A DNA stretch of 58,661 nt from Candidatus Omnitrophota bacterium (GTDB lineage: Bacteria; Omnitrophota; Gorgyraeia; Gygaellales; Profunditerraquicolaceae): positions 1 through 58,661 of the forward strand of contig JBAZGE010000003.1 of NCBI GenBank assembly GCA_041653035.1, in the 5' to 3' direction. A model generated the notes under the pieces. The model was not told the origin of the DNA and did no database searches. It saw only the letters and a list, made by a program, of their open reading frames with translations. The position numbers were made by a program, and so were the translations under genes. The first letter of the stretch is position 1; each line of letters begins with the position of its first letter. Of this stretch, positions 2 through 58,606 are shown in pieces.

Positions 2-130
2 ATAACCGACCACCGCATTAATTTTACGCTGTATAAGATGGAAGCGGTCCTGGAAGGAGATCTGGACGAGTTGTCCGATGCTTTGATCAAAGCGAGCGAA
101 GCGGCGGAGAAAAATGTTAAAGAAGGTTAA
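2..130 (+). CDS. prfA: peptide chain release factor 1, C-terminal fragment (5' part lies outside the window)
   Basis: Frame-2 translation [42 protein letters not shown] resembles the conserved RF1 C-terminus. It is followed by prmC, the usual prfA-prmC arrangement. Confidence 0.75.
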
Positions 131-157
131 AGTTAGGTTAATGATTGTTAAAGGCAG

Positions 158-994
158 TTGCCAAAAATATTTAATCTTTTTTCTATGACGGAAGCGGAAC
201 TGGTATTTACTCATGTTATGCGATGCGACAGGACGGCATTATATCTCGACAGGGATAGTGTTCTGGATAAAACCGTTTCCGGGCGGCTGTCGGCTGTTTT
301 ACGCAGACGCGCGGGCGGAGAACCGCTCGCGTATATCCTCGGCACACAGGAATTCATGGGGTTTAGTTTCGAGGTTGATCAGGTGGTATTGATCCCGCGA
401 ATGGAGACTGAGATACTGGTGGAGACGGCGGTAAATTATGCCGCCGGAGCACCGGAGCACCGGGGCACCGGTTTGAAAATCCTGGATGTGGGGACGGGAA
501 GCGGGAATATCTCGGTGTCTTTGGCGCGGTTATTGCCGGATGCTGCGATCGACGCGCTCGATATTTCCGAAGAAGCGTTATCGGTTGCGCGAAAAAACGC
601 GCGCTTGAACAATGTCGAGCAGAGGGTTAGGTTTATTCATAGCGATTTATTTAATTGTTCCTACGAGCGACGAGCCACGAGCTACGAGCTCATCGTGAGC
701 AACCCTCCATACATTCCCGCGGGAGAGATCGCGCGATTACAGCCGGAAGTCCGGCGTGAGCCGCGTATCGCTCTGGATGGGGGAAAAGACGGCCTGGATT
801 TTTACCGCAGGATAATCAAGGATTCGCCCTGTTGTTTGAAAGAAGGCGGATATTTATTGATGGAGATAGGTTTCGGACAGCGGGAAGCGGTGGAAGAAAT
901 TCTCAAGGAGAGTAAAAGATTTGACATTGAAGAGATCGTAAAGGATTATAGCGGGATTGAGCGGGTCGTTGTCGCTCAGAAGCGGAGATTTTAG
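158..994 (+). CDS. prmC: release factor glutamine N5-methyltransferase (HemK/PrmC)
   Basis: NPPY catalytic motif (VSNPPYIP) and SAM-binding DVGTGSGNI. TTG start taken from the ORF track; an alternative ATG lies at 185. The frame contains an in-frame heptamer repeat at 661-688. Confidence 0.9.
   Translation: MPKIFNLFSMTEAELVFTHVMRCDRTALYLDRDSVLDKTVSGRLSAVLRRRAGGEPLAYILGTQEFMGFSFEVDQVVLIPRMETEILVETAVNYAAGAPEHRGTGLKILDVGTGSGNISVSLARLLPDAAIDALDISEEALSVARKNARLNNVEQRVRFIHSDLFNCSYERRATSYELIVSNPPYIPAGEIARLQPEVRREPRIALDGGKDGLDFYRRIIKDSPCCLKEGGYLLMEIGFGQREAVEEILKESKRFDIEEIVKDYSGIERVVVAQKRRF
661..688 (+). repeat. 7-nt tandem array CTACGAG CGACGAG CCACGAG CTACGAG inside the prmC coding sequence
   Basis: Four exact-period heptamers translated as (S)YERRATSYE(L), just upstream of the NPPY motif. 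Related (C)GAGCGAC strings recur at 25433-25447 and 25737-25750. Confidence 0.8.
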
Positions 995-1084
995 TTTGTA
1001 AGTTAGTAAGTGTGTAAGTGTAAAAAAAGTAAAACCGGCTTTTCTTTATCCTTATATACTTTACACTTACAAACTTACACACTA
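992..1084. repeat. short-tandem-repeat palindrome, GTAAGT type (prmC-murA spacer)
   Basis: Left arm TAGTTTGTAAGTTAGTAAGTGTGTAAGTGTAAA starts at the prmC stop codon. Right arm TTTACACTTACAAACTTACACACTA (1060-1084) is its imperfect reverse complement. Confidence 0.85.
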
Positions 1085-1101
1085 TTAATCGAGGATAATT
1101 T

Positions 1102-2373: not shown

Positions 2374-2446
2374 TAGTGTAAAGTGTATAAGTGTAAAGTT
2401 TGTAAGTGTGGGACTTACACACTTTACACTTAAAAACTTAAACACT
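2374..2446. repeat. short-tandem-repeat palindrome, GTAAGT type (murA-trpG spacer)
   Basis: AGTGTAAAGTGTATAAGTGTAAAGTTTGTAAGTGTG / CTTACACACTTTACACTTAAAAACTTAAACACT form a long imperfect hairpin. Confidence 0.85.
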
Positions 2447-2457
2447 AAGGAGCAACT

Positions 2458-4847: not shown

Positions 4848-4875
4848 AATAGTGTAAAGTTTGTTCCGTTCCTTT

Positions 4876-10836: not shown

Positions 10837-10883
10837 GAGTAAAAGAACCCGGGAGCACCAGAACACCGGTGCGCCAGATCACC

Positions 10884-10958
10884 AGTTAGTGCATAAGTCT
10901 GGCTCTTAGCTCGCGGATTAGAGTTAAACTTATGCACTTACGCACCCATGCACTAACC
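10884..10958. repeat. palindrome of the GTGCATAAG type (acsD-acsE spacer)
   Basis: AGTTAGTGCATAAGT ... ACTTATGCACTTACGCACCCATGCACTAACC. The stem is at least 11 bp (GTGCATAAGT/ACTTATGCAC). Confidence 0.8.
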
Positions 10959-10997
10959 TATGCTCCAGGTTGAAATTTTTAAAAGGAGGGATTGAAC

Positions 10998-11786: not shown

Positions 11787-11795
11787 CAGGCACCC

Positions 11796-12192: not shown

Positions 12193-12282
12193 TTGAGATT
12201 TGCGGAAGCTACTTTGCCTAAAAGCCCCATTCGCAAAAATTCCGTCAGATTCATTAAAGGTTGTGTTAAAATAAGGTTGCTT

Positions 12283-12864: not shown

Positions 12865-13013
12865 AAAAACGGATGTCGTTACAGGATAAGGCGGAAGCGG
12901 CGATGAAGGCGGCGGTTCGCGGGGTTGTGGAGCGGCATAAGAAGTCTGGCCGCCCGTTGGCTATTTGGGAAAAAGGCAGGGTTGTTCGTATTTCTCCTTA
13001 TTCCGTGAAGTAA
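12861..13013 (+). CDS. unannotated 50-aa ORF coupled to the zeta-like gene (candidate partner or antitoxin)
   Basis: An ATGA overlap joins its ATG (12861) to the TGA of the upstream gene (12862-12864). Translation: MKKRMSLQDKAEAAMKAAVRGVVERHKKSGRPLAIWEKGRVVRISPYSVK*. It falls below the ORF-track length cutoff. Confidence 0.4.
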   Translation: MKKRMSLQDKAEAAMKAAVRGVVERHKKSGRPLAIWEKGRVVRISPYSVK

Positions 13014-13037
13014 TTCCAGGTACCCCTTGCGGGGCTC

Positions 13038-13220
13038 GGCATTTTGCCGGAGGATGTATGGCCGGCACAATTAGAAATTTTTTGGCATAATTGTAGTTAA
13101 ACTGTCGGTCGGCAAGGAATTACGCTGAGCGGAAGGCGAGGGGAGATAACTATCTCGCGCCTGCAGCGAAGCGTAAGCCGCAGCCGACGGCAAAAATTAT
13201 ACACCCGCAGGCAAAATGCC
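13038..13220 (-). mobile_element. MITE-like element, copy B (183 bp, inverted relative to A and C)
   Basis: Begins GGCATTTTGCCGGAGG and ends CCGCAGGCAAAATGCC. Its reverse complement aligns along its whole length with copy C. Confidence 0.8.
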
Positions 13221-22163: not shown

Positions 22164-22268
22164 TAATCCCCTCCGCAAAATCCTCGGTCTTCAGACCGGG
22201 GATAGGAATCTATGGATGTGTTTTTTTGCTTCGGGGAGGGAGCCTTGCCTTTAAGCTGAGGGGCTCCC
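22164..22268 (+). repeat. structured ~105-nt repeat, copy E1 (candidate sRNA or small mobile palindrome)
   Basis: Near-identical to 58501-58606. Predicted helices: CCCTCC..GCAAAA / TTTTGC..GGAGGG; CCTCGGTC-TTCA-GACCGGGG; GGAGCC...GGCTCC. Confidence 0.6.
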
Positions 22269-25254: not shown

Positions 25255-25286
25255 CTGACAACCGACAACTGATAACTGACAACTAA
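25255..25286 (+). repeat. 7-nt tandem array CTGACAA CCGACAA CTGATAA CTGACAA CTAA between frr and tRNA-Lys
   Basis: Exact 7-nt period, one arm only, with TGA/TAA in the units. Confidence 0.75.
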
Positions 25287-31783: not shown

Positions 31784-31873
31784 CTTAGTGTATAAGTTTG
31801 TAAGTGTAAAAAAAAGACTGAGCACTTAGTGCGGCAGCGCTTACACACTTTATACTTACAAACTTACACACTA
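31784..31873. repeat. short-tandem-repeat palindrome, GTAAGT type (metK-ahcY spacer)
   Basis: Left arm TAGTGTATAAGTTTGTAAGTGTAAA. The right arm's reverse complement reads TAGTGTGTAAGTTTGTAAGTATAAAGTGTGTAAGC (2 mismatches in 25). Confidence 0.88.
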
Positions 31874-33153: not shown

Positions 33154-33243
33154 AGTAAGTAGTGTGTAAGTTTTTAAGTGTACAGTGTGTAAGTGATCAA
33201 TGTGTTTTTACTTACAAACTTTACACTTACACACTTTACACTA
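33154..33243. repeat. short-tandem-repeat palindrome, GTAAGT type (ahcY-DUF4139 spacer)
   Basis: Left arm AGTAAGTAGTGTGTAAGTTTTTAAGTGTACAGTGTGTAAGTG. Right arm CTTACAAACTTTACACTTACACACTTTACACTA. Confidence 0.88.
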
Positions 33244-33258
33244 ACGAGGGGGGATGCG

Positions 33259-34957: not shown

Positions 34958-34975
34958 TCATTAACCGCCATTAAC
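34958..34975. repeat. two-unit TTAACC fragment (10-nt period) upstream of pfkA
   Basis: CATTAACCGCCATTAACC, same flavour and spacing as the right arms at 52266-52312 and 55734-55759. Confidence 0.6.
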
Positions 34976-34985
34976 CTTATCGACG

Positions 34986-37344: not shown

Positions 37345-37407
37345 TTCGTAAGTTCCTAAGTGCGTATTTTAGTGCATAGGTGCATAAGTAGACTGAACTT
37401 ATGCACT
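37342..37407. repeat. palindrome of the GTGCATAAG type (fba-ilvD spacer)
   Basis: The left arm starts at the fba stop codon (TAGTTCGTAAGTTCCTAAGTGCG...GTGCATAGGTGCATAAGT). 10-bp perfect stem GTGCATAAGT-AGACTGA-ACTTATGCAC. Confidence 0.8.
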
Positions 37408-37459
37408 GTAACTTTTGCGAGTTTACGGATAATTAGCTGGAATTTTTGCGGAGGTTGTG

Positions 37460-39115
37460 ATGAGATCAGATAATATCAAAAAGGGATTAGAGCGGGTTCC
37501 GCACCGCGCGCTTCTGCATGCCACGGGGTTGAGCAGAAAAGATCTTTCCAAACCGTTTATCGGGGTGGCGACTTCTTTTACCGACCTGGTTCCCGGGCAT
37601 ATCGGGATGCGCGACCTGGAACGGTTTATTGAACGCGGCGTCTGCGCAGGCGGCGGAGTTCCGTTCTTTTTCGGCATTCCCGCGATCTGCGACGGCCTGG
37701 CTATGGGGCATTTGGGGATGTGTTATCCCTTGGCTGCGCGGGAGCTTATTGCCGATTCTATCGAGGCGGTGTGCAATGCCCACAGCCTTGACGGGATCGT
37801 GTGCCTTACCAATTGCGATAAGATGACTCCCGGGATGATCATGGCCGCGGTCCGTTTGAACATCCCGGCGATCGTTGTGACTGCCGGGCCCATGCTTTCG
37901 GGACGGCTTCGCACCCGGAAACTCGCGTTTGTTCATGATACCTACGAGGGGCTGGCGCGCGCGAAAAAAGGGGATATTTCACCGGAAGACCTGGAATGCC
38001 TGGAGATGGAGGCCTGCCCGGGCGCGGGTTCCTGCCAGGGGTTATACACGGCTAATACCATGGCCTGTCTGACTGAAACCATGGGAATGTCCCTGCCCGG
38101 CTGCGGCACTGCCCTGGCTGTTTCCGCCAGAAAACGCAGGATCGCCGAGGCCAGCGGTGAACGTATCATTGAGTTGGTGAAAAAGAATGTCACTCCCCGG
38201 GATATTATTACCCGGGAATCATTAGAGAATGCGGTTACCGTGGATATGGCGCTGGGAGGCTCGAGCAATACGGTACTGCATCTTATGGCTATCGCTCACG
38301 AAGCGGGTATATCGCTGGACTTGCGGACATTTGACCGGATCGGCAAGGCCACGCCGCATATTACGAACATAGAACCCGCGGGGACGCATTTTATGGAAGA
38401 TGTCGATTTTGCCGGCGGTATCCCGGCGGTGCTCAAACGGCTGAAGAAATATTTGCACAATACGCCGACCGTCAGCGGCCGGAAGACCTTTGCCATAGCC
38501 GATGCCGCGGAGATCTGCGATGAAGAAGTGATACGGCCGTTTGACAGGGCGTATCATAAGCAGGGAGGGATTGCGGTTCTTTTCGGGAATCTCTCGCCCA
38601 ACGGCGCGGTGGTAAAACAGGCGGCGGTGAACCCTTCGATGATGAAGTTCACCGGGAAGGCGAAAGTATTCAACCGTGAAGAAGAAGCAATGCAGGCGAT
38701 CCTGAACGGTCAGATAAAATCCGGGCACGTGGTGGTCATCAGGTATGAAGGGCCGAGCGGCGGCCCGGGGATGCGTGAAATGCTCGCGCCGACATCGGCC
38801 ATCGTCGGTATGGGGCTGGCGGATTCCGTGGCCCTGATCACCGATGGAAGGTTTTCCGGGGGTACGAAGGGGCCGTGCATCGGGCATATATCGCCGGAAG
38901 CGGCTGCCGGAGGGCCTATTGCAATTTTAAAAGACGGTGATATAATTAATATCGATATTCCCGGTCGAAAGATCGAGGTTGTTTTGTCCAGGGCAGAGAT
39001 AGCAAAAAGATTCAAAATCTGGAAAGCTGTTCCACCTAAAATAACTACCGGTTATCTTGCCCGTTATTCGAGAATGGTCAGTTCCGCGGACAAGGGAGCG
39101 GTGTTAGAAGTTTAA
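37460..39115 (+). CDS. ilvD: dihydroxy-acid dehydratase
   Basis: [10 protein letters not shown] Fe-S ligand region, [10 protein letters not shown] and [11 protein letters not shown] 37460 after GGAGG; GTG 37457 is also possible. Confidence 0.95.
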
Positions 39116-39154: not shown

Positions 39155-39182
39155 CTAAACGAGAAACGCAAAACGCTAAACG
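39155..39182 (+). repeat. four 7-nt units CTAAACG AGAAACG CAAAACG CTAAACG upstream of ilvB
   Basis: Exact 7-nt period. The complementary flavour (GCGTTTT/GCGTTTG) occurs at 46774-46810. Confidence 0.75.
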
Positions 39183-39185
39183 AAG

Positions 39186-40853
39186 ATGACCGGCGCAGAG
39201 ATAATCATTGAATGTTTGAAACGAGAAGGCGTAGAGGTGATCTTCGGTTACCCGGGCGGACAGGTTTTGCCGCTTTTTGATAAGCTTTATGATTGCGGTA
39301 TCCGTTTCATTCTTCCCCGTCATGAACAGGCCGCCGCGCATGCCGCGGACGGATATGCGCGGGCCACCGGAAAAACGGGGGTTTGTATCGCGACCTCCGG
39401 GCCGGGGGCGACCAATCTGGTTACCGGTATCGCGACCGCGTATATGGATTCTATTCCCATGGTGGCGATAACCGGACAGGTCAAGACCTCCGTGATCGGC
39501 AACGACGCTTTTCAGGAAGCGGATATTACCGGGATCACCCGGCCGATCACCAAACATAATTACCTGGTTAAAAATGTGAAGGACCTGGCGCTTATTATCC
39601 GCGAGGCTTTTCTTATCGCGTCAACCGGGCGTCCGGGGCCGGTGGTCATCGATATTCCGTCCGATGTACAACAGAAGGAAACCGAATTCATCTGGCCCGA
39701 GGAAGTGCATATCCGGGGGTACAAACCGACCTATTTCGGCCATCCCGGACAGATCAAAAAAGCGGCCGGTCTGATAAAACGTTCGAAACGGCCGATTATT
39801 TATGCCGGCGGCGGGGTGATCACCTCGGGCGCGCACCTGGAGCTCAAAGCGTTGGCTGAGAAGATACAGGCTCCGGTGACCTGGACGCTGATGGGGATAG
39901 GCGGGTTCCCCACGATGCATAAACTGAGCGTGGGCATGCTGGGGATGCACGGGACGGTTCCCGCCAATTATGCAATAACCGAATCGGATCTGATCCTTGC
40001 CGTGGGCGCGCGTTTTGACGACCGGGTTACCGGAAGATTGGATGCCTTTGCTCCGAACGCCAAGATAATCCATATCGATATCGATCCATCGTCCATAAGC
40101 AAGAACGTAAAAGTGGATGTTCCTATTGTGGGTGATGCGAAAAATATACTCGGCCAGTTGATCGAAGAGGTCAATAAACCCCCGGATACGGCCGAATGGC
40201 TGAAAACCGTGGACAGTTGGAAAAAGAAAAGCCCGTTGAAATACAATAATGAAGGCACGAAGATCAAACCGCAGTATGTGATCGAACAGATCTGTGAAGT
40301 CACCAAGGGGGAAGCGCTCATTGCCACGGAAGTCGGCCAGCACCAGATGTGGGCCTGTCATTGGTATCGATATTCCCATCCGCGCACCTTCATCTCTTCC
40401 GGAGGACTGGGAACCATGGGGTTCGGTTTCCCGGCGGCCATGGGGGTGAAACTGGGGTGTCCCGATAAGATTGTTTTCGATATTGCCGGCGACGGTTCTA
40501 TCCAGATGAATATACAGGAACTGGCCACGTGCGTGTGCAATAAGATCCCGGTCAAAGTGGCCATATTAAATAACGGATTTTTGGGGATGGTGAGGCAGTG
40601 GCAGGAATTGTTCTACAACCGTCGTTATTCGCATACCAGTCTTTACAACCCCGATTTTGTTAAACTCGCCGAAAGCTACGGGGCAGCGGGTATAAAGATC
40701 ACCCGGAAAGAGGATGTGCGCCACGCCCTGGAAAAGGCGATCGCTATCGATAACGTGGTTTTTCTTGATTTTCACGTGGAATCCGAGGAAAATGTTTTTC
40801 CGATGGTCCCCGCGGGAGAAGCGGTGAACAGGATGATCGGAGGAATGGCGTAA
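39186..40853 (+). CDS. ilvB: acetolactate synthase large subunit
   Basis: [26 protein letters not shown]-terminus and ThDP motif [12 protein letters not shown]...NNG. Confidence 0.95.
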
Positions 40854-40956
40854 GTTCGTAATTCGTAATCAGTAAATCGTAATCCGTAATTACGAGGAAT
40901 TCTTAATATATAACATTTTCCTTTTACGAATTACCAATTACGGATTACGATTTACG
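40854..40956. repeat. short-tandem-repeat palindrome, CGTAAT type, exact 7-nt period (ilvB-ilvN spacer)
   Basis: (C/A)GTAA starts at 40857, 40864, 40871, 40878, 40885. The inverted TTAC starts at 40924, 40931, 40938, 40945, 40952. Confidence 0.9.
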
Positions 40957-40986
40957 AAAAAAGTGTGAATGAGGGGATTTACAAAG

Positions 40987-41460
40987 ATGAAACATATCAT
41001 TTCAGTTTTAGTGGATAACAAGCCGGGGGTACTGGCACGGGTTGCGGGTCTTTTCAGCGCCCGGGGATATAATATTTGTTCGTTGGCGGTTGGCGAGACC
41101 GAAGATCCGGCTATCTCGCGCATGACCATTGTTTCGGAAGCGGCGGACATCCGGATACTGGAACAGATCATCAAGCAGCTGCGCAAGCTTATCGATACCA
41201 TCACCGTGACCGATCTGACGCGGAAAGATTTTCTGGACAGGGAAATGGTGCTGCTCAAGGTGAAGTTCCCTGCCGAGCAGCAGCGGGCGATTGCCGCCGC
41301 GGCGAATAAATTCAATGCCAAGATAGTTAAACATAACCGTGATTTTGCGGTGTTTGAGCTTTGCGCGGCATCGGAAGATGTGGAGTCGTTCCTTAAAAGT
41401 ATCAAACAATTCGAGATCGTAGAGCTTATGCGCACCGGAAGGGTTGCTGTAGTTTTATAA
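40987..41460 (+). CDS. ilvN: acetolactate synthase small (regulatory) subunit
   Basis: ACT domain start [30 protein letters not shown]. The ORF-track start at 40969 is probably too early. Confidence 0.9.
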
Positions 41461-41477
41461 ACAACGGAGGAGAAAAC

Positions 41478-42470
41478 ATGGCTAAGATCTATTATGATAA
41501 GGACGCTGATTTGAATGTGTTAAAAAACAAAAAAGTCGCCATTATCGGTTACGGGATCCAGGGGCGCGGGCAGAGCTTGTGCCTGAGGGACAGCGGGGTA
41601 CAGGTTATTGTTTCGGAATTAGAAGGTACCGTGAATTATGCGAAGGCAAAGGAAGATAAGTTCATTCCCGTGAGCGTGAAGGCTGCGGCTCAGAATGCGG
41701 ATGTCATTCAGATCCTTACGCAGGACCACGTACAGGCAAAGGTCTATAAGGACTCGATCGAACCGAATCTGGTCAAGGGAAAGTCGCTTTGTTTTTCGCA
41801 CGGGTTTAACATTCATTTTAAGCAGATCGTTCCTCCGAAATTCGTAGATGTTTTTATGATCGCTCCCAAAGGGCCCGGAGCGCTGGTGCGCAGGATGTAC
41901 GAAGAGGGTAAAGGCGTGCCTTGTTTGGTCGCTGTTCATCAGGATGCCAGCGGCAAGGCTTTAGATATCGCTTTGGCCTACGCGAAAGCTTTAAAAGCGA
42001 CCACGGCGGGTGTGATCGGGACCACTTTCAAGGAGGAGACCGAAACCGACCTTTTCGGCGAACAGGCGGTATTGTGCGGAGGTGTTTCGGAATTGATAAC
42101 CGCGGGTTTCGATACTTTGATCAAAGCCGGGTATCAGCCGGAAATCGCTTATTTCGAAGTCCTGCACGAGTTGAAATTGATCACCGATCTCATACAGGAA
42201 AGGGGCATTTCCGGGATGAGGCGGAGCGTTTCCAATACCGCCTGCTACGGCGATTTGAGCAGAGGGAAAAGGATAATCAACGCCAAGACACGCGCCGAGA
42301 TGAAGAAGATACTTAAAGAGATACAGAGCGGTAAGTTCGCCAAGGAATGGATACGGGAGAACGAGAAGGGCAGGCCGAACTTCAATAAACTTTTGAAGAA
42401 AGGCGACGAACATAAGATTGAAGAAGTAGGACGAAAGTTGCGAGAGATGATGCCGTGGATGAAAAAATGA
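41478..42470 (+). CDS. ilvC: ketol-acid reductoisomerase
   Basis: [19 protein letters not shown] Rossmann motif. 330 aa, class I KARI. Confidence 0.95.
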
Positions 42471-42477
42471 TTTAAAA

Positions 42478-42574
42478 AACGTAAACCGTAATTCGTAATA
42501 CGTAAAAGGAAAGTGCGATATGACACAATTCCTTTTTGTTGCGGATTACGATTTACGGATTACGATTTACGATT
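42478..42574. repeat. short-tandem-repeat palindrome, CGTAAT type (ilvC-leuA spacer)
   Basis: CGTAA at 42480, 42487, 42494, 42501. TTACG at 42546, 42553, 42560, 42567. The right arm ends at the leuA ATG. Confidence 0.9.
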
Positions 42575-44080
42575 ATGGATAAGATAATTATTTTTGATAC
42601 CACACTTCGCGATGGGGAACAGGCTCCGGGGGCTTCTTTGAATCATCGGGAGAAACTGGAGATCGCCGAAGCGCTTGCCGATCTGGGGGTGGATGTTATC
42701 GAGGCCGGGTTTCCTATCAGCAGTACCGGTGATTTTGAGTCCGTGAAGCAGATCGCTAAAGCGGTCAAGGGGCCGGTTATCTGCGGCCTTGCCCGTTGTC
42801 TCAAGGCGGACATTGACGCCGCCTCTGAAGCGGTGAAATACGCCAAACGTCCGCGCATCCATGTGTTCCTGGCGACTTCGAAGATCCATATGCAGTATAA
42901 ATTGAAGAAGCCGGAAGAGGAAATTTTAAAAATAGCCGTGGACTGGGTTACGTACGCGAAGAAATTCTGCGCGGACATAGAGTTTTCTCCCGAAGACGCC
43001 TCGCGCACCGAACGGGTTTTTTTGTACCGGGTGCTTGAGGCGGTCATTGATGCCGGAGCCACGACGGTCAATATCCCCGACACCGTGGGGTATTCCGAAC
43101 CCCGGGAATTCGGCACGCTCATCGGATCGATCAAAGAGAACGTCCCGAATATCGATAAGGCCGTGATTTCCGTGCATTGCCATAATGATCTGGGGCTGGC
43201 GGTTGCCAATTCCCTGGCCGCGGTCACCAGCGGTGCCCGGCAGGTTGAATGTACCATAAACGGCATCGGCGAACGAGCGGGGAATGCTTCTTTGGAGGAA
43301 ACGGTGATGGGGGTTAAAACCCGCAGGGATATTTTTAGCGGTGTGTATACCGATATCAAGACTCGGAATATTTTCAAAGTATCGCGGCTGGTGAGTAAAC
43401 TGACCGGATTCCTGATCGCTCCCAACAAGGCGATCGTGGGGAACAACGCTTTCAGGCATGAATCGGGCATTCACCAGGACGGTGTCTTGAAAGAACGTTC
43501 CACCTATGAGATAATCCGCCCGGAAGATGTGGGTTTTACCGGACGGGGTATTGTCCTCGGTAAGCATTCCGGGAGGCATGCCCTGGATGAAAAAATGAAA
43601 GATCTGGGTTTTCATCTTACTCCGGACCAACTGGAAAAAGCCAATGTGTTATTTAAACAGCTTGCGGATAAAAAGAAAAATATTTTCGACAGCGACCTGA
43701 TCTCTCTTTTGGAAGGCCAGGTGGGGCTGGAAAAACCGCTTTTTATCCTGGAAGATTTCACGATAACTTCCGGGACACACGTGAAACCCTTGGCGAAGGT
43801 CGCTTTGCGCTGTAAAAACAAATCTCTCTCAGCGCAATCCTCCGGTGACGGCCCGGTTGACGCCTGTTTCAAGGCTATCGATAAAGCCACCGGGATCAAA
43901 GGGACGCTTGAAGATTACCGTATCGAGGCGGTTACCCGGGGGAAAGACGCCCTGGGAGAAGTGAGCCTTAAACTTACCGCTCAAGGAAAGACCGTTACTT
44001 CCCGCAGTTCAAGTACCGATATAATTGAGGCATCGGTGCTGGCATATGTGAATGCGTTGAACAAAATCGAGAGTTTGTAG
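42575..44080 (+). CDS. leuA: 2-isopropylmalate synthase (LeuA/CimA family)
   Basis: MDKIIIFDTTLRDGEQ and HCHNDLGLAVAN. The ORF-track start at 42536 translates the repeat arm. No Shine-Dalgarno upstream of ATG 42575. Confidence 0.9.
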   Translation: MDKIIIFDTTLRDGEQAPGASLNHREKLEIAEALADLGVDVIEAGFPISSTGDFESVKQIAKAVKGPVICGLARCLKADIDAASEAVKYAKRPRIHVFLATSKIHMQYKLKKPEEEILKIAVDWVTYAKKFCADIEFSPEDASRTERVFLYRVLEAVIDAGATTVNIPDTVGYSEPREFGTLIGSIKENVPNIDKAVISVHCHNDLGLAVANSLAAVTSGARQVECTINGIGERAGNASLEETVMGVKTRRDIFSGVYTDIKTRNIFKVSRLVSKLTGFLIAPNKAIVGNNAFRHESGIHQDGVLKERSTYEIIRPEDVGFTGRGIVLGKHSGRHALDEKMKDLGFHLTPDQLEKANVLFKQLADKKKNIFDSDLISLLEGQVGLEKPLFILEDFTITSGTHVKPLAKVALRCKNKSLSAQSSGDGPVDACFKAIDKATGIKGTLEDYRIEAVTRGKDALGEVSLKLTAQGKTVTSRSSSTDIIEASVLAYVNALNKIESL

Positions 44081-44195
44081 AAATCGTAATCCGTAAATCG
44101 TAATTCGTAATTCGTAAATCGTAATAATAAGGCATGCTTTAAATAGAATAATTCCAAACAATTACGATTTACGCATTACCAATTACGGATTACGA
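44081..44195. repeat. short-tandem-repeat palindrome, CGTAAT type (leuA-aroE spacer)
   Basis: Six CGTAA units at an exact 7-nt spacing (TAA at 44087, 44094, 44101, 44108, 44115, 44122). Inverted arm AATTACGATTTACGCATTACCAATTACGGATTACG. Confidence 0.9.
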
Positions 44196-44218
44196 AAATA
44201 AATGATTTCCTTTTATTT

Positions 44219-45070
44219 ATGTCCGATATTTACGGTGTCCTCGGATTTCCCGTCAAACACAGTTTCTCGCCGGCAATGCACAATGCCGCTTTCAAAACCC
44301 TTAATTTAGACGCCGAGTACAGGCTTTTTGAAAAAGAATCCGGTGAACTCCGGGAGTTTTTCGCTTCGGCGGCCCGGGAGTCTATTAAAGGTTTTAATGT
44401 CACCATCCCCTATAAAGAAACGGCTAAACAATTTATAGACGTATTTACCGAAGAAGCCATGCTTATCGGTGCGGTAAATACCGTAAAGATCGGCGCGCGT
44501 ACGATAACCGGGCATAATACCGATGGGAACGGTTTTCTCCGGCATTTGTCCGAGGTATACCGGCAAAATCTGAAAGGGCTTTCTGTTTCTCTTTTGGGAG
44601 CGGGCGGAGCGGCCAGGGCAGTGGCTTATTCTCTGTCCGCCGCAGGGGTAGGCCGGATCCTGATATTTGATGCCTTGAAAGAGAGGGCCGGGGTATTATC
44701 AGGTGAGATCAACCGGGCGTTTCACGCCGGTTTGACCTCGGCTGCCGCCGGTATCGGGGAGTTGCAGAGTTGTAACCCGGAATTGTTCATCAATGCCACC
44801 CCGGTCGGCATGAAGGAAGATGATCCGTTATTGATCAACGCCGATAAATTGTTTCCCTGTACGTTCGTATACGACGTTGTTTACAACATCCCGGAAACCA
44901 GATTACTGCGTACGGCAAAAGCCAGAGGATGCAATTGCGCGAACGGCCTGGGGATGCTTTTGTATCAGGGAGTCCAGGCATTTGAGTTCTGGACCGGCAG
45001 GCAGGCTCCCGTAGATGTGATGCGCAGGGCTCTTGAAGAGGCGGTATATGGGAAAGGCTATGGGGTATAG
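44219..45070 (+). CDS. aroE: shikimate dehydrogenase
   Basis: GVLGFPVKHSFSP N-terminus, NVTIPYK and GAGGAARAV. The last codons lie in a CTATAGC-type repeat. Confidence 0.9.
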   Translation: MSDIYGVLGFPVKHSFSPAMHNAAFKTLNLDAEYRLFEKESGELREFFASAARESIKGFNVTIPYKETAKQFIDVFTEEAMLIGAVNTVKIGARTITGHNTDGNGFLRHLSEVYRQNLKGLSVSLLGAGGAARAVAYSLSAAGVGRILIFDALKERAGVLSGEINRAFHAGLTSAAAGIGELQSCNPELFINATPVGMKEDDPLLINADKLFPCTFVYDVVYNIPETRLLRTAKARGCNCANGLGMLLYQGVQAFEFWTGRQAPVDVMRRALEEAVYGKGYGV

Positions 45071-45162
45071 CCTTCAGGGGGCAGGAATATAAAAAGGAAG
45101 AATATAAGAAATTCTAATGAGATTATAAAGTTTTCCCTATAGTCCATAGCCTATAGCCTAAG
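45055..45162. repeat. palindrome of the CTATAGC/CCATAGC type (aroE 3' end to the prepilin peptidase gene)
   Basis: Left arm GGCTATGGGGTATAGCC lies within the last aroE codons and its stop. Right arm CTATAGT CCATAGC CTATAGC CTAAG has a 7-nt period. Confidence 0.8.
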
Positions 45163-46776: not shown

Positions 46777-46810
46777 CGTTTTGAGTTGTTGCGTTTGGCG
46801 TTTTGCGTAA
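46774..46810 (+). repeat. GCGTTT(T/G) tandem units downstream of the TM-helix protein gene
   Basis: TAGCGTTTTGAGTTGTTGCGTTTGGCGTTTTGCGTAA starts at the stop codon. It is the reverse-complement flavour of 39155-39182. Confidence 0.7.
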
Positions 46811-50049: not shown

Positions 50050-52140
50050 ATGAATGAAAGTAAAATCAGAAAAATTACGTTTGGAAAAGAAGAATTCGTT
50101 TTTGAAACCGGCAGGATGGCGAAGCAGGCGAATGGTTCGGTTTTAGTTCAGTACGGCGGGACGGTTGTGCTGGTGACCGCCTGTGTGTCCCGGGAACCGC
50201 GGAGCGGTATAGATTTTTTTCCGTTGACGGTGGAATATCAGGAGAAAACGTATGCCGCGGGAAAGATTCCCGGCGGTTTTTTTAAGCGGGAAGGAAGGCC
50301 GACTGAGAGTGAGATCCTCACTTCGCGGCTTATTGACCGGCCTATCCGTCCGCTGTTTCCCAAGGGGATGTATAATGACGTGCAGATCATTGCGATCGTT
50401 GTTTCCAGCGACGGGGCGAACGATCCGGATGTCTTGGCGGTAAATGGCGCGTCTCTTGCTTTGTGCATGTCCGATATTCCTTTTAACGGGCCTGTGGCTT
50501 GCTGCCGGGTGGGAAGAGTGGAAGGGGAATTTATTCTGAATCCCACCTACGCGGAACTTGAGATTTCCGAAATTGATGTCGTGGTTGTTTTGAACGCCAA
50601 CGGCGTGGTGATGATCGAATGTAAAGCAAAAGAAGTATCCGAAGAGCTGTTCATAGAAGCGGTTCAATTCGGGGTCGATCAGGGGCAGGCGCTTCTGCGC
50701 TTTCAGAATGATTTCGCGAAGGAATTAGGCAAAGAAAAGATGCAGATTGCTTTGAAGGTGATTGATCCCGTTCTGGAAAAGAAAGTCGAGGAATTAGCCG
50801 GCGGGAAGCTCCGGGATATTTATAAATTATCCAAGAAAGATGATCGGGAAGAAGGAGTGGCGTTATTGTCTAAAGAACTTGCCGCTACCTTGGTTCCTGA
50901 AGGATACATTGAAACCGACGTGAAAATGGCCCTGGTGGATGTGGAGCAAGAACAGGTGCGGAATAAAATCCTTCATGAGAAAATTCGCATTGACGGCAGG
51001 GGATTTAAGGATATACGTCCGATAACCTGCGAAGTCTCGGTTTTGCCCAGGACGCACGGTTCCGCGCTTTTTACCCGCGGACAAACACAGAGCCTTGCGG
51101 TTACCACTTTGGGTACCGGCCAGGATGAACAGCTTATCGAGGGGTTGGAAGAGGAACGGTACAAATCGTTTATGCTGCATTACAGTTTCCCTCCGTTTAG
51201 TGTAGGGGAGACCAAACCCGTACGAGGCCCCGGCAGGAGAGAAATAGGCCATGGAGCTCTCGCGGAACGCGCCCTTTTGGCTGTTATTCCTTCAAAAGAT
51301 CAATTTCCGTATACCGTCAGGGTTGTGTCCGAGGTGTTGGAATCGAACGGGTCTTCAAGCATGGCGACCGTGTGCGCGGCGACATTGTCTTTGATGGACG
51401 CGGGCGTTCCCATTAAGGATTCGGTTGCCGGCGTAGCGATGGGATTGATCAAGGAAGGAGATACCGCTCTCATCTTGACCGATATTTCCGGCCTTGAGGA
51501 TCATTTTGGCGACATGGATTTTAAAGTCGCGGGTACAAAGAACGGTGTTAATGCCGTGCAGCTTGACCTGAAGATCGACGGGATTAGCGTGGAACTGTTG
51601 AAAAACTGTACTTTGCAGGCTAAAGAAGCGCGGTTTACCATATTGGATAAGATACGGCAGGCGTTACCGGCGCCGCGGCAGGAGTTATCCGTGCACGCGC
51701 CGCGCATAGAAAAACTGAAGATTCCTACCGATAAGATAGGAGAAGTCATCGGGCCCGGAGGTAAGAATATCAAGAAGATCATTGCCCAGACCGGCTGCGC
51801 CATCGATATTGAAGACGACGGGACTGTTCTTATTTCTTCGAGTGATTCCGCGAAATCCGCCGAAGCTATCGGTATGATCAAGGCTATCACCGATGAAGTG
51901 GAAATCGGCAAGATATATGCCGCTAAAGTAAAACGAATAGTTAATTTTGGAGCGTTTTGCGAGATCGCGCCCGGGAAAGAGGGCTTGGTGCATGTGTCTG
52001 AATTGTCCGATAAGTTCGTTAAAGACGTGGCTTCCGTGATCAAGATCGGCGATGAGATCAAGGTTAAGGTGGTCGGGATCGATGAGCTGGGTAGAATTAA
52101 CTTGAGTAAGAAGAAGGCTGAGGAACAGGAAAAAGGTTAA
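50050..52140 (+). CDS. pnp: polyribonucleotide nucleotidyltransferase (PNPase)
   Basis: 696 aa. Two RNase PH-like domains followed by KH (IGEVIGPGGKNIKKI) and S1 (GLVHVSEL) domains. Canonical rpsO-pnp pair. Confidence 0.95.
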   Translation: MNESKIRKITFGKEEFVFETGRMAKQANGSVLVQYGGTVVLVTACVSREPRSGIDFFPLTVEYQEKTYAAGKIPGGFFKREGRPTESEILTSRLIDRPIRPLFPKGMYNDVQIIAIVVSSDGANDPDVLAVNGASLALCMSDIPFNGPVACCRVGRVEGEFILNPTYAELEISEIDVVVVLNANGVVMIECKAKEVSEELFIEAVQFGVDQGQALLRFQNDFAKELGKEKMQIALKVIDPVLEKKVEELAGGKLRDIYKLSKKDDREEGVALLSKELAATLVPEGYIETDVKMALVDVEQEQVRNKILHEKIRIDGRGFKDIRPITCEVSVLPRTHGSALFTRGQTQSLAVTTLGTGQDEQLIEGLEEERYKSFMLHYSFPPFSVGETKPVRGPGRREIGHGALAERALLAVIPSKDQFPYTVRVVSEVLESNGSSSMATVCAATLSLMDAGVPIKDSVAGVAMGLIKEGDTALILTDISGLEDHFGDMDFKVAGTKNGVNAVQLDLKIDGISVELLKNCTLQAKEARFTILDKIRQALPAPRQELSVHAPRIEKLKIPTDKIGEVIGPGGKNIKKIIAQTGCAIDIEDDGTVLISSSDSAKSAEAIGMIKAITDEVEIGKIYAAKVKRIVNFGAFCEIAPGKEGLVHVSELSDKFVKDVASVIKIGDEIKVKVVGIDELGRINLSKKKAEEQEKG

Positions 52141-52312
52141 TGAAGGTTAAAGGAAGTTAAAGATGGTTAATGATGGTTAAAAGCAAATTCGTCTGAGACG
52201 ATGCTGCTGAAGTAAATATTAAAAAAATGTTCATTATAGGTTTATTATTTTAACAGGCATTTTTTTAACTTTCTTTAACCGCATTTAACCGTCTTTAACC
52301 AGCATTAACCTG
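52141..52312. repeat. inverted arrays of GGTTAA units with an exact 10-nt period (pnp-ftsK spacer)
   Basis: GTTAA at 52146, 52156, 52166, 52176. TTAAC at 52266, 52276, 52286, 52296, 52306. An AT-rich spacer of about 75 nt lies between the arrays. Confidence 0.9.
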
Positions 52313-54551: not shown

Positions 54552-54556
54552 TGAGC

Positions 54557-54763
54557 GTCTGCTGAAAAAGCCTCATCTGCGTTGTTGCGCAGAAAGCGCA
54601 CACCGGCCTTACCAATTAGGCCGGGTGCTGCGCGCCGCGTTCCTTTGTGCGGCGTATATGGTACATACGCCTGCGCAGAAGCGCGTACCAAACCGTCCTT
54701 ATAGGTTTGGGTGCTCCGCAGTCACTTGGCGCGCGCCTATCATCTGAGGCTTTTTGAGCAGAC
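54557..54763. mobile_element. second palindromic repeat family, long copy (D1)
   Basis: TIRs GTCTGCTGAAAAAGCCTCATCTGCG ... CATCTGAGGCTTTTTGAGCAGAC. The core is shared with D2, plus two extra internal hairpin modules. Confidence 0.75.
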
Positions 54764-54824
54764 TTCCTGAAATGGTTATTTTAACAAACTGTTGTATGTA
54801 CTCTTTAGAGCGGATGGGAGTAAT

Positions 54825-55640: not shown

Positions 55641-55759
55641 AGAAATGGTTAATGAAAGTTAAAGAGGGTTAAAAGAAAAAACATATGGTTTTTTCGTAAC
55701 TACCTTCAACCGGTAGTGTCGACTTCATTTTCATTAACCGATTTTAACCGTCATTAACC
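55641..55759. repeat. inverted arrays of GGTTAA units with a 10-nt period (rodZ-rimO spacer)
   Basis: GTTAA at 55648, 55658, 55668. TTAACC at 55734, 55744, 55754. The right array abuts the rimO ATG. Confidence 0.9.
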
Positions 55760-57591: not shown

Positions 57592-57593
57592 CA

Positions 57594-57714
57594 GTCTGCT
57601 GAAAAATCCTCATCTGCGTCGTTGCGCGCCGCGTGGCTTTGTGCGGCGTATATGTAACATACGCCTCCGCAGCCACTTGGCGCGCGCCTAGCATCTGAGT
57701 CTTTTTGAGCAGAC
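57594..57714. mobile_element. second palindromic repeat family, short copy (D2)
   Basis: GTCTGCTGAAAAATCCTCATCTGCG ... CATCTGAGTCTTTTTGAGCAGAC. Shares the core GTGCGGCGTATATG.(T/A)ACATACGCCT.CGCAG with D1. Confidence 0.75.
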
Positions 57715-57730
57715 TGCTACACTGAGCCCC

Positions 57731-57926
57731 GGCATTTTGCCTGCGGATTTATGTCCGTCACGAAAATTTTTGCCGTCGGCTGCGGTTTACGCTTCACTCC
57801 AGGCGCGGGATAATAGGCGGGTCATCGCCTTGCGCTTAGCGTAATTCCTTGCCGACCGAAAGTGCAGCAGGGGATATGGCAAAAATTTTCTAATTGTGCC
57901 GGCCATAACTCCTCCGGCAAAATGCC
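57731..57926 (+). mobile_element. MITE-like element, copy C (196 bp)
   Basis: Same TIRs and internal sequence as copy B (for example GCCGTCGGCTGCGG(C/T)TTACGCTTC and GCGTAATTCCTTGCCGACCGA). Ends 9 nt before the pgpA ATG. Confidence 0.8.
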
Positions 57927-58500: not shown

Positions 58501-58606
58501 TAATCCCCTCCGCAAAATCCCCCGGTCTTCAGATCGGGGATAGGAATCTGCGGAATGTGTTTTTTGCTTCGGGGAGGGAGCCTTGGCCTTTAGGCCGAGG
58601 GGCTCC
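58501..58606 (+). repeat. structured ~105-nt repeat, copy E2
   Basis: Second copy of E1. The differences inside the stems keep pairing intact (CCCCGGTC-TTCA-GATCGGGG; GGCC-TTTA-GGCC). Confidence 0.6.

What the first reader, a model, noticed from the sequence alone, without database searches (positions are those of the whole stretch)
40851..44197. ilvN-ilvC and leuA are bracketed by palindromes built from exact 7-nt CGTAAT-type tandem units, including a perfect 24-nt inverted repeat spanning leuA
Three consecutive spacers (40854-40956, 42478-42574, 44081-44195) have the same architecture.
- A left array of NCGTAAN heptamers begins at or next to the upstream stop codon.
- A short unique loop region follows.
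- An inverted array of NTTACGN heptamers ends at or near the next start codon.

The period is exactly 7 nt across up to six units.

Complementarity exists within each spacer and also across a whole gene. ATTACGATTTACGGATTACGATTT (42545-42568, just 5' of leuA) is the perfect reverse complement of AAATCGTAATCCGTAAATCGTAAT (44081-44104, just 3' of leuA). That 24-nt match is better than the local arm-to-arm match in the 44081-44195 spacer, which is about 12 + 14 nt with an internal loop.

ilvB and ilvN are normally tightly linked, but here they are separated by a 133-nt spacer made of this repeat. leuA has no Shine-Dalgarno; the array runs up to its ATG.

This resembles REP/BIME doublets, but the arms are microsatellite-like. 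I do not recognise it as a described family.
Basis: seen in the sequence. Interest (0 to 1): 0.72.

Follow-up and report, generated by a model that had tools for sequence, protein, structure and literature searches.

The report
Tandem-repeat hairpin spacers between genes
The spacers around ilvN-ilvC and leuA in this Omnitrophota genome are real, recently gained hairpin-forming palindromes whose arms are arrays of 7-nt repeats, but they are one local example of an already noticed and still unexplained class of paired, inverted short-tandem-repeat arrays found in many bacteria.

Summary
Three spacers (ilvB|ilvN, ilvC|leuA, leuA|aroE) each hold a CGTAANN array, a unique core and an inverted NNTTACG array. 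The period is exactly 7 nt, and each spacer folds at about -35 kcal/mol.

The finding is too narrow. The same 58-kb window has at least 11 such palindromes in four or more unit families (7, 8 and 10 nt), plus unpaired arrays.

Relatives at 75-78% LeuA identity have tight junctions (0-31 nt, apart from REP-like hairpins in one) and no arrays. Relatives at 90-93% have arrays at many of the same junctions. Their units are often different, and each genome has its own dominant family.

The 24-nt match across leuA is real. However, every left arm pairs about equally well with every right arm, so it is a by-product of shared units.

CGTAANN arrays are not a special family. They occur in at least 119 unrelated genomes, and three control heptamers are at least as common in viral contigs.

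Paired inverted arrays of 7-9-nt units were already described in Xanthomonas and Geobacter metallireducens.

Most likely these are fast-turning-over, non-coding repeat palindromes tolerated inside operons. Any function is unproven.

The parts
40849..40891 (+). Spacer 1 (ilvB|ilvN) left array, six NCGTAAN units. The first unit contains the ilvB TAA stop (40851-40853) and is 8 nt from the next.
40892..40923 (.). Spacer 1 core or loop with inner stem GGAA...TTCC. It is in flipped orientation relative to the cores of spacers 2 and 3.
40924..40958 (+). Spacer 1 right array, five NTTACGN units (one is TTACC). It ends 28 nt before the ilvN ATG (40987), leaving the SD GAGGGG free.
42480..42506 (+). 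Spacer 2 (ilvC|leuA) left array, four CGTAANN units, starting 9 nt after the ilvC TGA.
42507..42538 (.). Spacer 2 core AAAAGGAAAGTG...AATTCCTTTTT. It is homologous to the spacer 1 core (reverse strand) and to the core of the orthologous element in L003.
42539..42573 (+). Spacer 2 right array, five units (the first is degenerate, TTGCG). It ends 1 nt before the leuA ATG (42575), and no SD is present.
44081..44126 (+). Spacer 3 (leuA|aroE) left array, six CGTAANN units, starting directly after the leuA TAG. It includes the 24-nt perfect complement of 42545-42568.
44127..44161 (.). Spacer 3 loop or core (AAGG...AATTCC).
44162..44196 (+). Spacer 3 right array, five units (one is TTACC). It ends 22 nt before the aroE ATG (44219), and no SD is present.
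993..1088 (+). Family A palindrome (GTGTAAN / NTTACAC units, about 7-8 nt) at prmC|murA. It is absent from relatives L586 and L587.
2374..2448 (+). Family A palindrome at murA|trpG. It is orthologous to a shorter copy in L586. L587 has a different family at this junction.
31784..31873 (+). Family A palindrome at metK|ahcY.
33154..33244 (+). Family A palindrome at ahcY|DUF4140-4139 gene (true start 33259).
52121..52312 (+). Family B palindrome (10-nt GGTTAAAGNN / NNCTTTAACC units) at pnp|ftsK. Its first unit supplies the pnp stop codon.
55647..55759 (+). Family B palindrome, running right up to the ATG at 55760.
116..153 (+). Family B left-type array only, at prfA|prmC. The orthologous junction in L586 holds a full family B palindrome.
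10850..10970 (+). Family D palindrome (8-nt GTGCATAN-type units) at cdhD|acsE. L585 has an AGCTNCTN palindrome at this junction.
37345..37410 (+). 8-nt array (TTCGTAAG, TTCCTAAG, GTGCATAN) plus hairpin at fba|ilvD.
39164..39185 (+). AAACGNN x4 array directly before the ilvB ATG. The L001 ortholog has a full CGTTANN...TAACGNN palindrome.
46777..46808 (+). CGTTTNN-type array directly after the mscS-like stop. It is the complement type of the 39164 array.
25255..25284 (+). Unpaired CTGACAA x4 array upstream of a tRNA.
45136..45160 (+). Unpaired CCTATAG x3.6 array before the prepilin-peptidase gene.

Best explanation
These are non-coding intergenic palindromes whose two arms are short-tandem-repeat arrays of 7-10-nt units. 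They are a fast-turning-over repeat class that colonised the permissive gene junctions of one Omnitrophota sub-lineage.

Shown:
- They are gains relative to relatives whose junctions are tight.
- They sit inside operons, with no promoter-like or terminator-like signal in the spacers.
- The three CGTAANN copies descend from one element with a shared asymmetric core.
- Arm units and arm lengths change quickly. At one junction the core stays recognisable while the units change.
- Each related genome has its own dominant unit family, spread over many junctions.

Inferred:
- Arrays grow and shrink by replication slippage.
- The two arms are kept alike by intra-strand template switching at the hairpin (quasi-palindrome correction or snap-back copying).
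- Copies spread to other junctions by an unidentified copying or gene-conversion process.
- The elements are transcribed within the polycistronic mRNA, where each folds co-transcriptionally into a local hairpin of about -35 kcal/mol.
- They are tolerated because the insert loops out, leaving stop and start codons close in space.
- Likely side effects are a barrier to 3' exonucleases, segmental mRNA stability, and altered translational coupling. leuA and aroE lost their upstream SD context.

I see no evidence for a sequence-specific function of the CGTAA unit.
For: Gain and loss:
- L004, L006 and L007 (75-78% LeuA identity) have ilvC|leuA gaps of 0-3 nt in L004 and L006. L007 has 160 nt there, holding an ordinary REP-like palindrome.
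- Their ilvB|ilvN gaps are 21-31 nt or the genes overlap. None has arrays.
- L003 (92%) has only 3 nt at leuA|aroE, so spacer 3 is a recent gain.
- prmC|murA is empty in L586 and L587 but occupied in the window.

Turnover:
- The ilvC|leuA element in L003 keeps the core CGTAAAAG(C)AAA...TTTATTGTTG. Its arms are 8-nt GCTCGTAA units, and L001 has GCTNCTNA units.
- murA|trpG has orthologous family A copies in the window and L586, with a left arm that differs by 18 nt. L587 has a different family at the same junction.
- pfk|fba has a single small hairpin in the window and a 216-nt array palindrome of the same motif in L001.

Paralogy: spacers 1-3 share their core and variant units such as TTGGTAAT.

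Genome-specific dominant families: AGCTNCTN occupies at least 8 junctions in 43 kb of GCA_020047475.1.

No hairpin-specific coevolution: local arm pairs are no better than cross pairs, and there is no consistent sense-strand folding advantage.

No promoter-like or terminator-like sites lie in the spacers.

Generality:
- CGTAANN x4 occurs in at least 119 genome loci from many phyla and in 97 viral loci.
- About a fifth of the genome loci have paired inverted arrays.
- There is no strand bias relative to transcription: 36 versus 29.
Against: - Slippage plus template switching does not by itself explain why one unit family appears at many junctions of one genome with unrelated loops. A dispersal mechanism is needed and none was identified.
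- Occupancy of the same junctions in three or four diverged genomes could mean selection for a hairpin there, rather than mere permissiveness.
- No unit-number polymorphism was seen among the three assemblies of the same strain.
- Transcription, folding in vivo and any effect on expression are untested.
Confidence: 0.5

Rival explanations
1. Selected RNA elements. The hairpins are intercistronic stabiliser or processing structures, acting as 3'-exonuclease barriers or RNase III-type sites. They set the relative abundance or translational coupling of neighbouring cistrons, and the structure matters rather than the sequence.
For: - They lie inside operons.
- They fold very strongly.
- The same junctions are occupied in diverged genomes while the sequence is replaced.
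- The hairpin feet lie next to stop and start codons.
- In L001 and L003 the last right-arm unit supplies AGGAG 8-9 nt before the leuA ATG, and it pairs with a CTCCT-containing left arm.
- Intercistronic stem-loops that set subunit stoichiometry are established in Clostridium cellulolyticum (PMC4423207, abstract seen).
Against: - They are absent from most relatives that have the same operons.
- Presence and absence vary among close relatives.
- Local arm complementarity is no better than cross-locus complementarity.
- There is no consistent sense-strand advantage.
- The same architecture occurs in convergent and divergent spacers in other phyla.
- Closeness to stop and start codons is forced by the tiny ancestral spacers.
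Confidence: 0.2
2. Mobile non-autonomous elements (REPIN, BIME, MITE or PATE-like). A trans-acting enzyme encoded elsewhere, such as a Y1 HUH transposase acting on single-strand hairpins, moves them. That would explain the absence of target-site duplications and terminal-repeat signatures.
For: - Each genome has a dominant family at many junctions.
- Spacers 1-3 are copies of one element with a shared core, one of them flipped.
- Insertions appear cleanly between stop and start codons with no duplication.
- New copies appear next to old ones.
Against: - No transposase or RAYT is found among about 45 window ORFs or in the annotated related loci.
- Several unrelated unit families coexist, which one sequence-specific enzyme would not serve.
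- The loops of the AGCTNCTN copies are unrelated to each other.
- The arms are arrays of variable length rather than a defined end.
Confidence: 0.13
3. Protein-binding arrays. The repeated units are iterated binding sites, in two orientations, for a nucleoid protein or regulator on DNA, or for a single-strand RNA binder such as S1, Csp or CsrA. This was proposed for the Geobacter and Beggiatoaceae repeats.
For: - Only 5 of the 7 positions are conserved in a unit, as expected for a binding site.
- This interpretation was proposed for the Geobacter paired sites and for the TAACTGA repeats (PMC2700814; PMC4679880).
- Unpaired arrays next to start codons also exist in the window.
Against: - At least four to seven different unit sequences and three periods occur in one 58-kb window, and different ones in close relatives. 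That would need many binders or rapid co-evolution.
- A 7-nt period is out of phase with the DNA helix.
- No candidate protein was identified.
Confidence: 0.1
4. Functional gene-spanning pairing. The right arm upstream of a cistron pairs with the left arm downstream of it and loops out the whole cistron in the mRNA.
For: - The 24-nt perfect complement across leuA is real.
- Equilibrium minimum-free-energy folds of whole cistrons prefer the spanning arrangement: -622.5 versus -605.6 kcal/mol for leuA, and -579.1 versus -549.3 for ilvN-ilvC.
Against: - All arm combinations pair about equally, so the match follows from shared units.
- The local hairpin forms first during transcription (inference).
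- Translating ribosomes would keep a 1.5-kb coding region from staying looped (inference).
- Spacer 3 is absent in the closest relative, L003.
Confidence: 0.04

Closest known systems
Paired tandem-repeat 'global regulator binding sites', classes 1-3, of Geobacter metallireducens (Aklujkar et al. 2009, PMC2700814)
   Same: - Each site is 3-5 tandem units of 7-9 nt (GTTGCTYN, TCTCCGTS[Y], MTYCTGA).
- Sites come in pairs on opposite strands with a variable distance between them.
- Several classes coexist in one genome.
- They are present in one species and absent from its relative G. sulfurreducens.
- One pair lies between the cistrons proB and proA.
   Different: - The unit sequences and the phylum differ.
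- The authors interpreted them as IHF/HU-type binding sites without testing.
- No evolutionary comparison of orthologous junctions was made.
- I could not inspect their sequences directly, only the text and figure legends.
Convergent GGGAATC heptamer-array pairs of Xanthomonas (Rehm et al. 2015, PMC4692102)
   Same: - They are intergenic heptamer arrays, mostly about 4 units, with only part of each unit conserved.
- In 70 cases in X. campestris (186 repeat patterns in all) and 75 in X. axonopodis (183), two repeat sites lie close together in convergent orientation on opposite strands.
- The authors note that these can form stem-loops or cruciforms.
   Different: - The units are G-rich and were studied for G-quadruplex formation.
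- There is one unit family rather than several.
- They were not described as splitting tight operons.
Heptamer-type long simple sequence repeats: cyanobacterial heptanucleotide repeats, and TAACTGA repeats of Beggiatoaceae, Cyanobacteria and Bacteroidetes (PMC4679880; Mrazek 2007 as cited there)
   Same: - They are tandem 7-nt units, intergenic, often directly before start codons.
- They are scattered across phyla.
- Heptamers are the commonest long simple-sequence-repeat class.
- My scans found CGTAANN arrays in Nostoc, Calothrix, Anaerolineae, Bacteroidales and others.
   Different: - They are mostly unpaired direct arrays. Only one of 170 TAACTGA sets in the Beggiatoaceae genome is inverted.
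- In this window most arrays are paired into hairpins.
REP / BIME / REPIN elements of proteobacteria
   Same: - They are extragenic, often intercistronic, imperfect palindromes present in many copies.
- They differ between related genomes.
- They are known to stabilise upstream mRNA (my own knowledge; REPINs in PMC3116915).
   Different: - REP arms are a single conserved sequence of about 35 nt, not an array of 7-10-nt units.
- REPINs are tied to a RAYT gene, and none was found here.
- No consensus is shared.
Intercistronic stem-loops for selective RNA processing and stabilisation (Clostridium cellulolyticum cip-cel operon, PMC4423207; phage T7 RNase III sites, from my own knowledge)
   Same: They are strong hairpins between cistrons of one transcript. 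This is a model for what these hairpins could do at the RNA level.
   Different: Those are conserved, locus-specific structures with mapped processing sites. Here nothing has been mapped and the elements are repeats that turn over.

Membership tests
Heptamer-type long simple sequence repeats (5-11-nt units) | Head-to-tail tandem copies of a 5-11-nt unit, longer than chance allows | tested here: met
   TRF finds period-7 arrays of 4-6 units. There are 17 double-unit hits against 0.12 expected. The register is exactly 7 nt.
Heptamer-type long simple sequence repeats (5-11-nt units) | Mainly intergenic, with many loci per genome and several unit sequences | tested here: met
   About 18 array-bearing spacers lie in 58 kb, with units of 7, 8 and 10 nt.
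Paired inverted tandem-repeat sites (Xanthomonas / G. metallireducens type) | Two arrays of the same unit on opposite strands, close together, with a variable unique spacer between them | tested here: met
   for the window.
Paired inverted tandem-repeat sites (Xanthomonas / G. metallireducens type) | Lineage-specific: present in one genome and absent from a related one | tested here: met
   Absent in L004, L006 and L007; present in the window, L001, L003, L585, L586 and L587.
REP / BIME / REPIN | Single conserved imperfect palindrome of about 20-40 nt as the repeat unit | tested here: not met
   The arms are arrays of variable number, and the loops are mostly unrelated.
REP / BIME / REPIN | Associated RAYT (IS200/IS605-like Y1 transposase) in the genome | tested here: inconclusive
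   None is found among about 45 window ORFs or in about 60 kb of related loci. The whole genome was not available.
MITE | Defined terminal inverted repeats plus a target-site duplication | tested here: not met
   No duplication is seen at filled versus empty junctions, including leuA|aroE in the window versus L003 and prmC|murA. A genuine inverted-repeat-flanked element in the same window (11793-13198) looks quite different.
Intrinsic terminator | Short G+C-rich stem followed by a T-run | tested here: not met
   No terminator-like site lies in the three spacers. The stems are A+U-rich and are followed by A-runs.
Any Rfam RNA family | Covariance-model match at the gathering score | tested here: not met
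   Only three tRNAs are found in the window. In the relaxed search of 40700-44400 the only hits were two spurious eukaryotic microRNA-precursor models far below their gathering scores.
Integron attC sites | Imperfect palindrome after each cassette ORF with RYYYAAC...GTTRRRY cores, next to an integrase | tested here: not met
   The genes are conserved, syntenic housekeeping operons. No integrase is present (Pfam calls). The cores do not fit on reading the sequence.
Invertible-promoter switch (inverton) | Both orientations of the segment between the inverted repeats found at one locus | tested here: inconclusive
   The spacer 1 core is flipped relative to spacers 2 and 3. At any given locus the three assemblies agree. 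No promoter-like site lies in the loops. Read-level data were not available.

The most novel reading that the evidence does not exclude
The repeat-armed palindromes are tunable RNA 'zippers'. Gain or loss of 7-10-nt units in an arm changes hairpin length and register without destroying pairing. A lineage could then rapidly adjust the decay, processing or translational coupling between neighbouring cistrons, a kind of contingency locus for operon stoichiometry. A structure-guided, sequence-independent copying mechanism would spread and homogenise them. This would make the scattered reports from Xanthomonas and Geobacter, and the many phyla hit in my scans, one widespread and unrecognised regulatory or element class.
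Probability: 0.12. Interest if true: 0.7.

Novelty: new member of a known kind. Interest (0 to 1): 0.4.

Why it matters
Paired inverted arrays of 7-10-nt units have been reported in passing in at least two bacterial lineages, and my scans show them in many phyla. Nobody knows how they arise, spread or act.

This Omnitrophota clade is a useful natural experiment, for four reasons:
- The elements split otherwise tight biosynthetic operons.
- Filled and empty junctions can be compared directly.
- Each genome carries its own dominant unit family.
- At one junction the core persists while the arm units change in concert.

That makes the origin and turnover of these elements testable with a few good genomes and a metatranscriptome.

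On the practical side, they break metagenome assemblies. Contigs end in the arrays or join wrongly there, and one assembly has a gap of Ns inside an array. They also displace start-codon calls.

If they are merely tolerated repeats, the finding is ordinary.

Tried and rejected
- Rfam, at gathering score and relaxed: nothing relevant.
- Promoter and terminator scan: nothing in the spacers.
- Strand test for RNA-level selection. Sense versus antisense fold energy favoured the sense strand in 12 of 17 elements, but not in two of the three CGTAANN spacers. G.U counts from minimum-free-energy folds are biased. I treat this as inconclusive.
- Idea that left-arm units exist to provide stop codons in all three frames. 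I dropped it because in other phyla both arrangements occur, 12 with CGTAA first and 6 with TTACG first, and right arms can also carry stop triplets.
- Idea that CGTAA is a special, horizontally spread unit. I rejected it because the controls GCTAANN, CAGTANN and ACTGANN are at least as frequent in viral contigs, and the hit loci carry 146 different heptamer consensus units.
- Metagenome scan with a pattern specific to the family C core. It mostly returned unrelated organisms (GC 0.22-0.69). Only L582 was the same strain.
- Automated count of inverted array pairs from TRF output. It undercounts because TRF reports periods of 14, 15 and 21 for the same arrays, so I used it only qualitatively.
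- Elhai et al. 2008, on small dispersed repeats in Nostoc, could not be read.
- Assembly artefact, integron attC sites, CRISPR and attenuator or T-box leaders were all considered and rejected (see the membership tests).

Full report
**1. The observation**

The region was read directly. The genes are ilvD (37457-39115), ilvB (39186-40853), ilvN (40987-41460), ilvC (41478-42470), leuA (42575-44080) and aroE (44219-45070). All are confirmed by Pfam.

Each of the three spacers holds a left array of NCGTAAN units, a unique core and an inverted array of NTTACGN units. The cores of the units sit at exact 7-nt spacing, with four to six units per arm. One exception is the unit that contains the ilvB stop codon, which is 8 nt from the next.

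CGTAANNCGTAA occurs 17 times in the window, all in these spacers, against 0.12 expected from shuffles. Each spacer folds as a long imperfect hairpin of -33.7 to -35.7 kcal/mol, z = -5.6 to -6.9. The 24-nt perfect inverted repeat across leuA exists.

Two independent assemblies contain the same sequence. L127 is identical and its contig ends inside the array 3' of leuA. L582 is 99.5% identical over 1.7 kb. The arrays are therefore not an assembly artefact.

**2. The finding is too narrow**

Tandem Repeats Finder and a read-through of all spacers show the same architecture elsewhere in the window with other units:
- Family A: GTGTAAN / NTTACAC at 993-1088, 2374-2448, 31784-31873 and 33154-33244.
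- Family B: the 10-nt unit GGTTAAAGNN at 52121-52312 and 55647-55759, with single arms at 116-153 and about 34959-34976.
- Family D: 8-nt GTGCATAN-type units at 10850-10970 and 37345-37410.
- Unpaired arrays: CTGACAA at 25255, AAACGNN at 39164, CCTATAG at 45136 and CGTTTNN at 46777.

These also fold strongly. About 18 of some 45 spacers carry arrays.

**3. Organism and relatives**

LeuA and MurA homologues are named Candidatus Omnitrophica or Omnitrophota by their sources.

Three syntenic relatives at 75-78% LeuA identity (L004/L005, L006, L007) have no arrays. In L004 and L006 the ilvC|leuA gap is 0-3 nt. Across the three, ilvB|ilvN is 21-31 nt or the genes overlap. L007 has only ordinary REP-like palindromes.

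Four loci from three genomes at 90-93% identity do have array palindromes. They are GCA_020047475.1 (L001, L585), GCA_028687525.1 (L586) and JGI 3300063055 (L003, L587). LeuA nucleotide identity within this clade is 83-88%.

**4. Junction-by-junction comparison**

| Junction | Window | Close relatives |
|---|---|---|
| ilvC\|leuA | CGTAANN (7 nt) | L003: GCTCGTAA (8 nt); L001: GCTNCTNA (8 nt) |
| leuA\|aroE | 138 nt | L003: 3 nt; L001: a simple G+C-rich hairpin |
| ilvB\|ilvN | CGTAANN | L001: AAATGTCAAAAT type |
| prmC\|murA | 107-nt family A palindrome | L586: 3 nt; L587: 18 nt |
| murA\|trpG | family A palindrome | L586: orthologous family A copy; L001 genome: left-arm remnant; L587: GCTCNTAA palindrome |
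| pfk\|fba | one small hairpin | L001: 216-nt array palindrome of the same motif |
| ilvD\|ilvB | AAACGNN x4 | L001: full CGTTANN...TAACGNN palindrome |

Further details:
- At ilvC|leuA the window and L003 still share core motifs (CGTAAAAG[G/C]AAA and TTTxTTGTTG). I read this as one ancestral element whose arm units were replaced in concert.
- At murA|trpG the window and L586 share the same right arm and Shine-Dalgarno, at about 84% identity by my reading. The window's left arm is 18 nt longer.
- Junctions with overlapping genes (trpG|trpD, ilvN|ilvC) are never occupied.
- GCA_020047475.1 has the AGCTNCTN family at at least eight junctions in 43 kb, each with a different loop.

**5. Relationship among the three CGTAANN elements**

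They share an asymmetric core, AAAAGGAAA(R)TG followed by about 12 nt and AATTCCT. They also share variant units such as TTGGTAAT. The spacer 1 core is inverted relative to those of spacers 2 and 3. They are therefore copies of one element, not three independent slippage products.

**6. Local versus gene-spanning pairing**

Equilibrium folding of whole cistrons does prefer the spanning arrangement. The values are -622.5 versus -605.6 kcal/mol for leuA and -579.1 versus -549.3 for ilvN-ilvC.

However, all nine left-by-right arm combinations are comparably stable. Local pairs give -33.5, -27.0 and -37.2 kcal/mol, and cross pairs give -25.8 to -45.0. Family A behaves the same way. The 24-nt match therefore follows from the shared 14-nt super-unit and is not evidence of a selected long-range helix. 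It also means there is no sign of hairpin-specific compensatory evolution.

Sense and antisense folds show no consistent difference.

**7. Signals**

No Rfam family matches. No sigma-70-like promoter or intrinsic-terminator-like site lies in the spacers. The arrays thus most likely lie inside one transcription unit. This is an inference, because promoter rules for this phylum are unknown.

leuA and aroE lack a Shine-Dalgarno, but so do most crudely called starts in the window.

**8. Is CGTAANN a special family?**

No. The hosts include Chloroflexota, Cyanobacteria, Bacteroidota, Acidobacteriota, Verrucomicrobiota, Planctomycetota and candidate-phyla-radiation bacteria. There are also 97 viral loci.

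The hit loci are generally rich in period-7 arrays: 312 arrays with 146 different consensus units in 0.85 Mb.

About 22 of the 119 loci have an inverted partner array close by and fold like the window's elements. Both arrangements occur, CGTAA first and TTACG first.

Orientation relative to flanking genes shows no bias, 36 versus 29. Arrays also lie in convergent and divergent spacers.

**9. Literature**

- Heptamers are the commonest class of long simple sequence repeats in prokaryotes. TAACTGA arrays sit just upstream of start codons in Beggiatoaceae, Cyanobacteria and Bacteroidetes (PMC4679880).
- In Xanthomonas, 70-75 cases per genome (of about 185 GGGAATC repeat patterns) have two repeat sites lying close together in convergent orientation on opposite strands (PMC4692102).
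- In Geobacter metallireducens, three classes of sites are made of tandem 7-9-nt units. They are mostly in pairs on opposite strands at variable distance. One pair lies between proB and proA. They are absent from G. sulfurreducens and were annotated as putative global-regulator binding sites (PMC2700814).

The architecture is therefore described, although unnamed and unexplained. I found no report for Omnitrophota.

**10. Interpretation**

Best supported (confidence 0.5): a fast-turning-over class of non-coding repeat-armed palindromes. They colonised the permissive junctions of one Omnitrophota sub-lineage, are transcribed within operons and fold locally. They are tolerated because the insert loops out.

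The gains, turnover, paralogy and generality are shown. Growth by slippage, arm homogenisation by template switching at the hairpin, and the mode of spread are inferred. The spread of one family over many junctions with unrelated loops is the weakest point.

Rivals are selected intercistronic RNA hairpins (0.2), transposase-driven elements (0.13), protein-binding arrays (0.1) and functional gene-spanning pairing (0.04).

**11. Verdict**

The claim of an undescribed family and the emphasis on the gene-spanning match are not upheld.

It is a new member, in a new phylum and with informative comparative data, of a known but poorly understood kind. Interest is moderate.

Noticed in passing
window 11793-13198, and 57728-57926: A 1.4-kb segment is flanked by perfect 44-nt inverted repeats (11830-11873 / 13155-13198). 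It carries a zeta-toxin-like gene (12193-12864) and sits between the acsE-like gene and trpB. A gene-less copy of its ends lies at 57728-57926. It looks like a classical inverted-repeat mobile element plus a miniature derivative, unrelated to the arrays.
   Followed up: partly
window 54552-54791 and 57592-57715: Two copies (90-94% identical over 50-nt blocks) of a G+C-rich, internally palindromic element. One starts TGAGCGTCTGCTGAAAAAGCCTCATCTGCG and the other CAGTCTGCTGAAAAATCCTCATCTGCG; both end in a related GAGCAGACT motif. They lie after ftsK and after the pgsA-like gene.
   Followed up: no
window 22177-22255 and 58515-58593: A 79-nt direct repeat (82% identical) containing small hairpins (CGGTCTTCAGACCG, GCTTCGGGGAGGGAGCC). 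Both copies are in long non-coding stretches.
   Followed up: no
window 660-690: A heptamer array, NACGAGC x4, lies inside the prmC coding sequence just before the NPPY motif. The unit resembles the TTACGAGC arm unit of relative L003.
   Followed up: no
L001 9778-9866: In GCA_020047475.1 a 62-nt insert with two small hairpins sits at the end of ilvC. It is flanked by a duplication of about 25 nt of the ilvC terminal codons (GAGATGATGCCNTGGATGAAG).
   Followed up: no
L582 about 1700-2011: A JGI contig of the same strain (99.5% identical over window 40860-42575) leaves the window sequence inside the spacer 2 right arm and continues into unrelated DNA. This is either an assembly chimera through the array or a rearrangement at another family C element.
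   Followed up: partly
window 52121-52140; L001 19490-19545: The pnp stop codon in the window lies in the first GGTTAA unit of the downstream array, and the C-terminus differs from the relative's (...EEQEKG* versus ...EEQS*, my translation). The array has overwritten the native gene end.
   Followed up: partly
window 4870-4960; L007 4869-4947 and 9841-10000: Ordinary REP-like palindromes also occur. One is a G+C-rich example, CATGCCCGCGCAAGCGGG...CCCGCTTGCGCGGGCATG, at trpC|trpF in the window. Another is an AAAATGGGGTCAGATTTATTTTT element present twice in the distant relative L007.
   Followed up: no
L001 4330-4390: The NCBI assembly has a run of Ns inside the fba|ilvD array palindrome, with duplicated sequence on both sides. 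These arrays break or confuse assemblies.
   Followed up: no
L563 (JGI Ga0194113_10000297), whole 14.6-kb locus: An unrelated metagenome contig (GC 0.47) carries about 18 heptamer arrays of many different units. Several are adjacent inverted pairs, for example TTGATTG / TCAATCA and CGTAATG / ATTACGC. This is another multi-family case.
   Followed up: partly
window 39164-39185 and 46777-46808: An AAACGNN array just before the ilvB start and its complement type, CGTTTNN, just after the mscS-like stop share CGCAAAACGC. They bracket the whole 7.6-kb ilv-leu-aro-pilD-mscS block. This is probably two half-elements of one family rather than a functional pair.
   Followed up: partly
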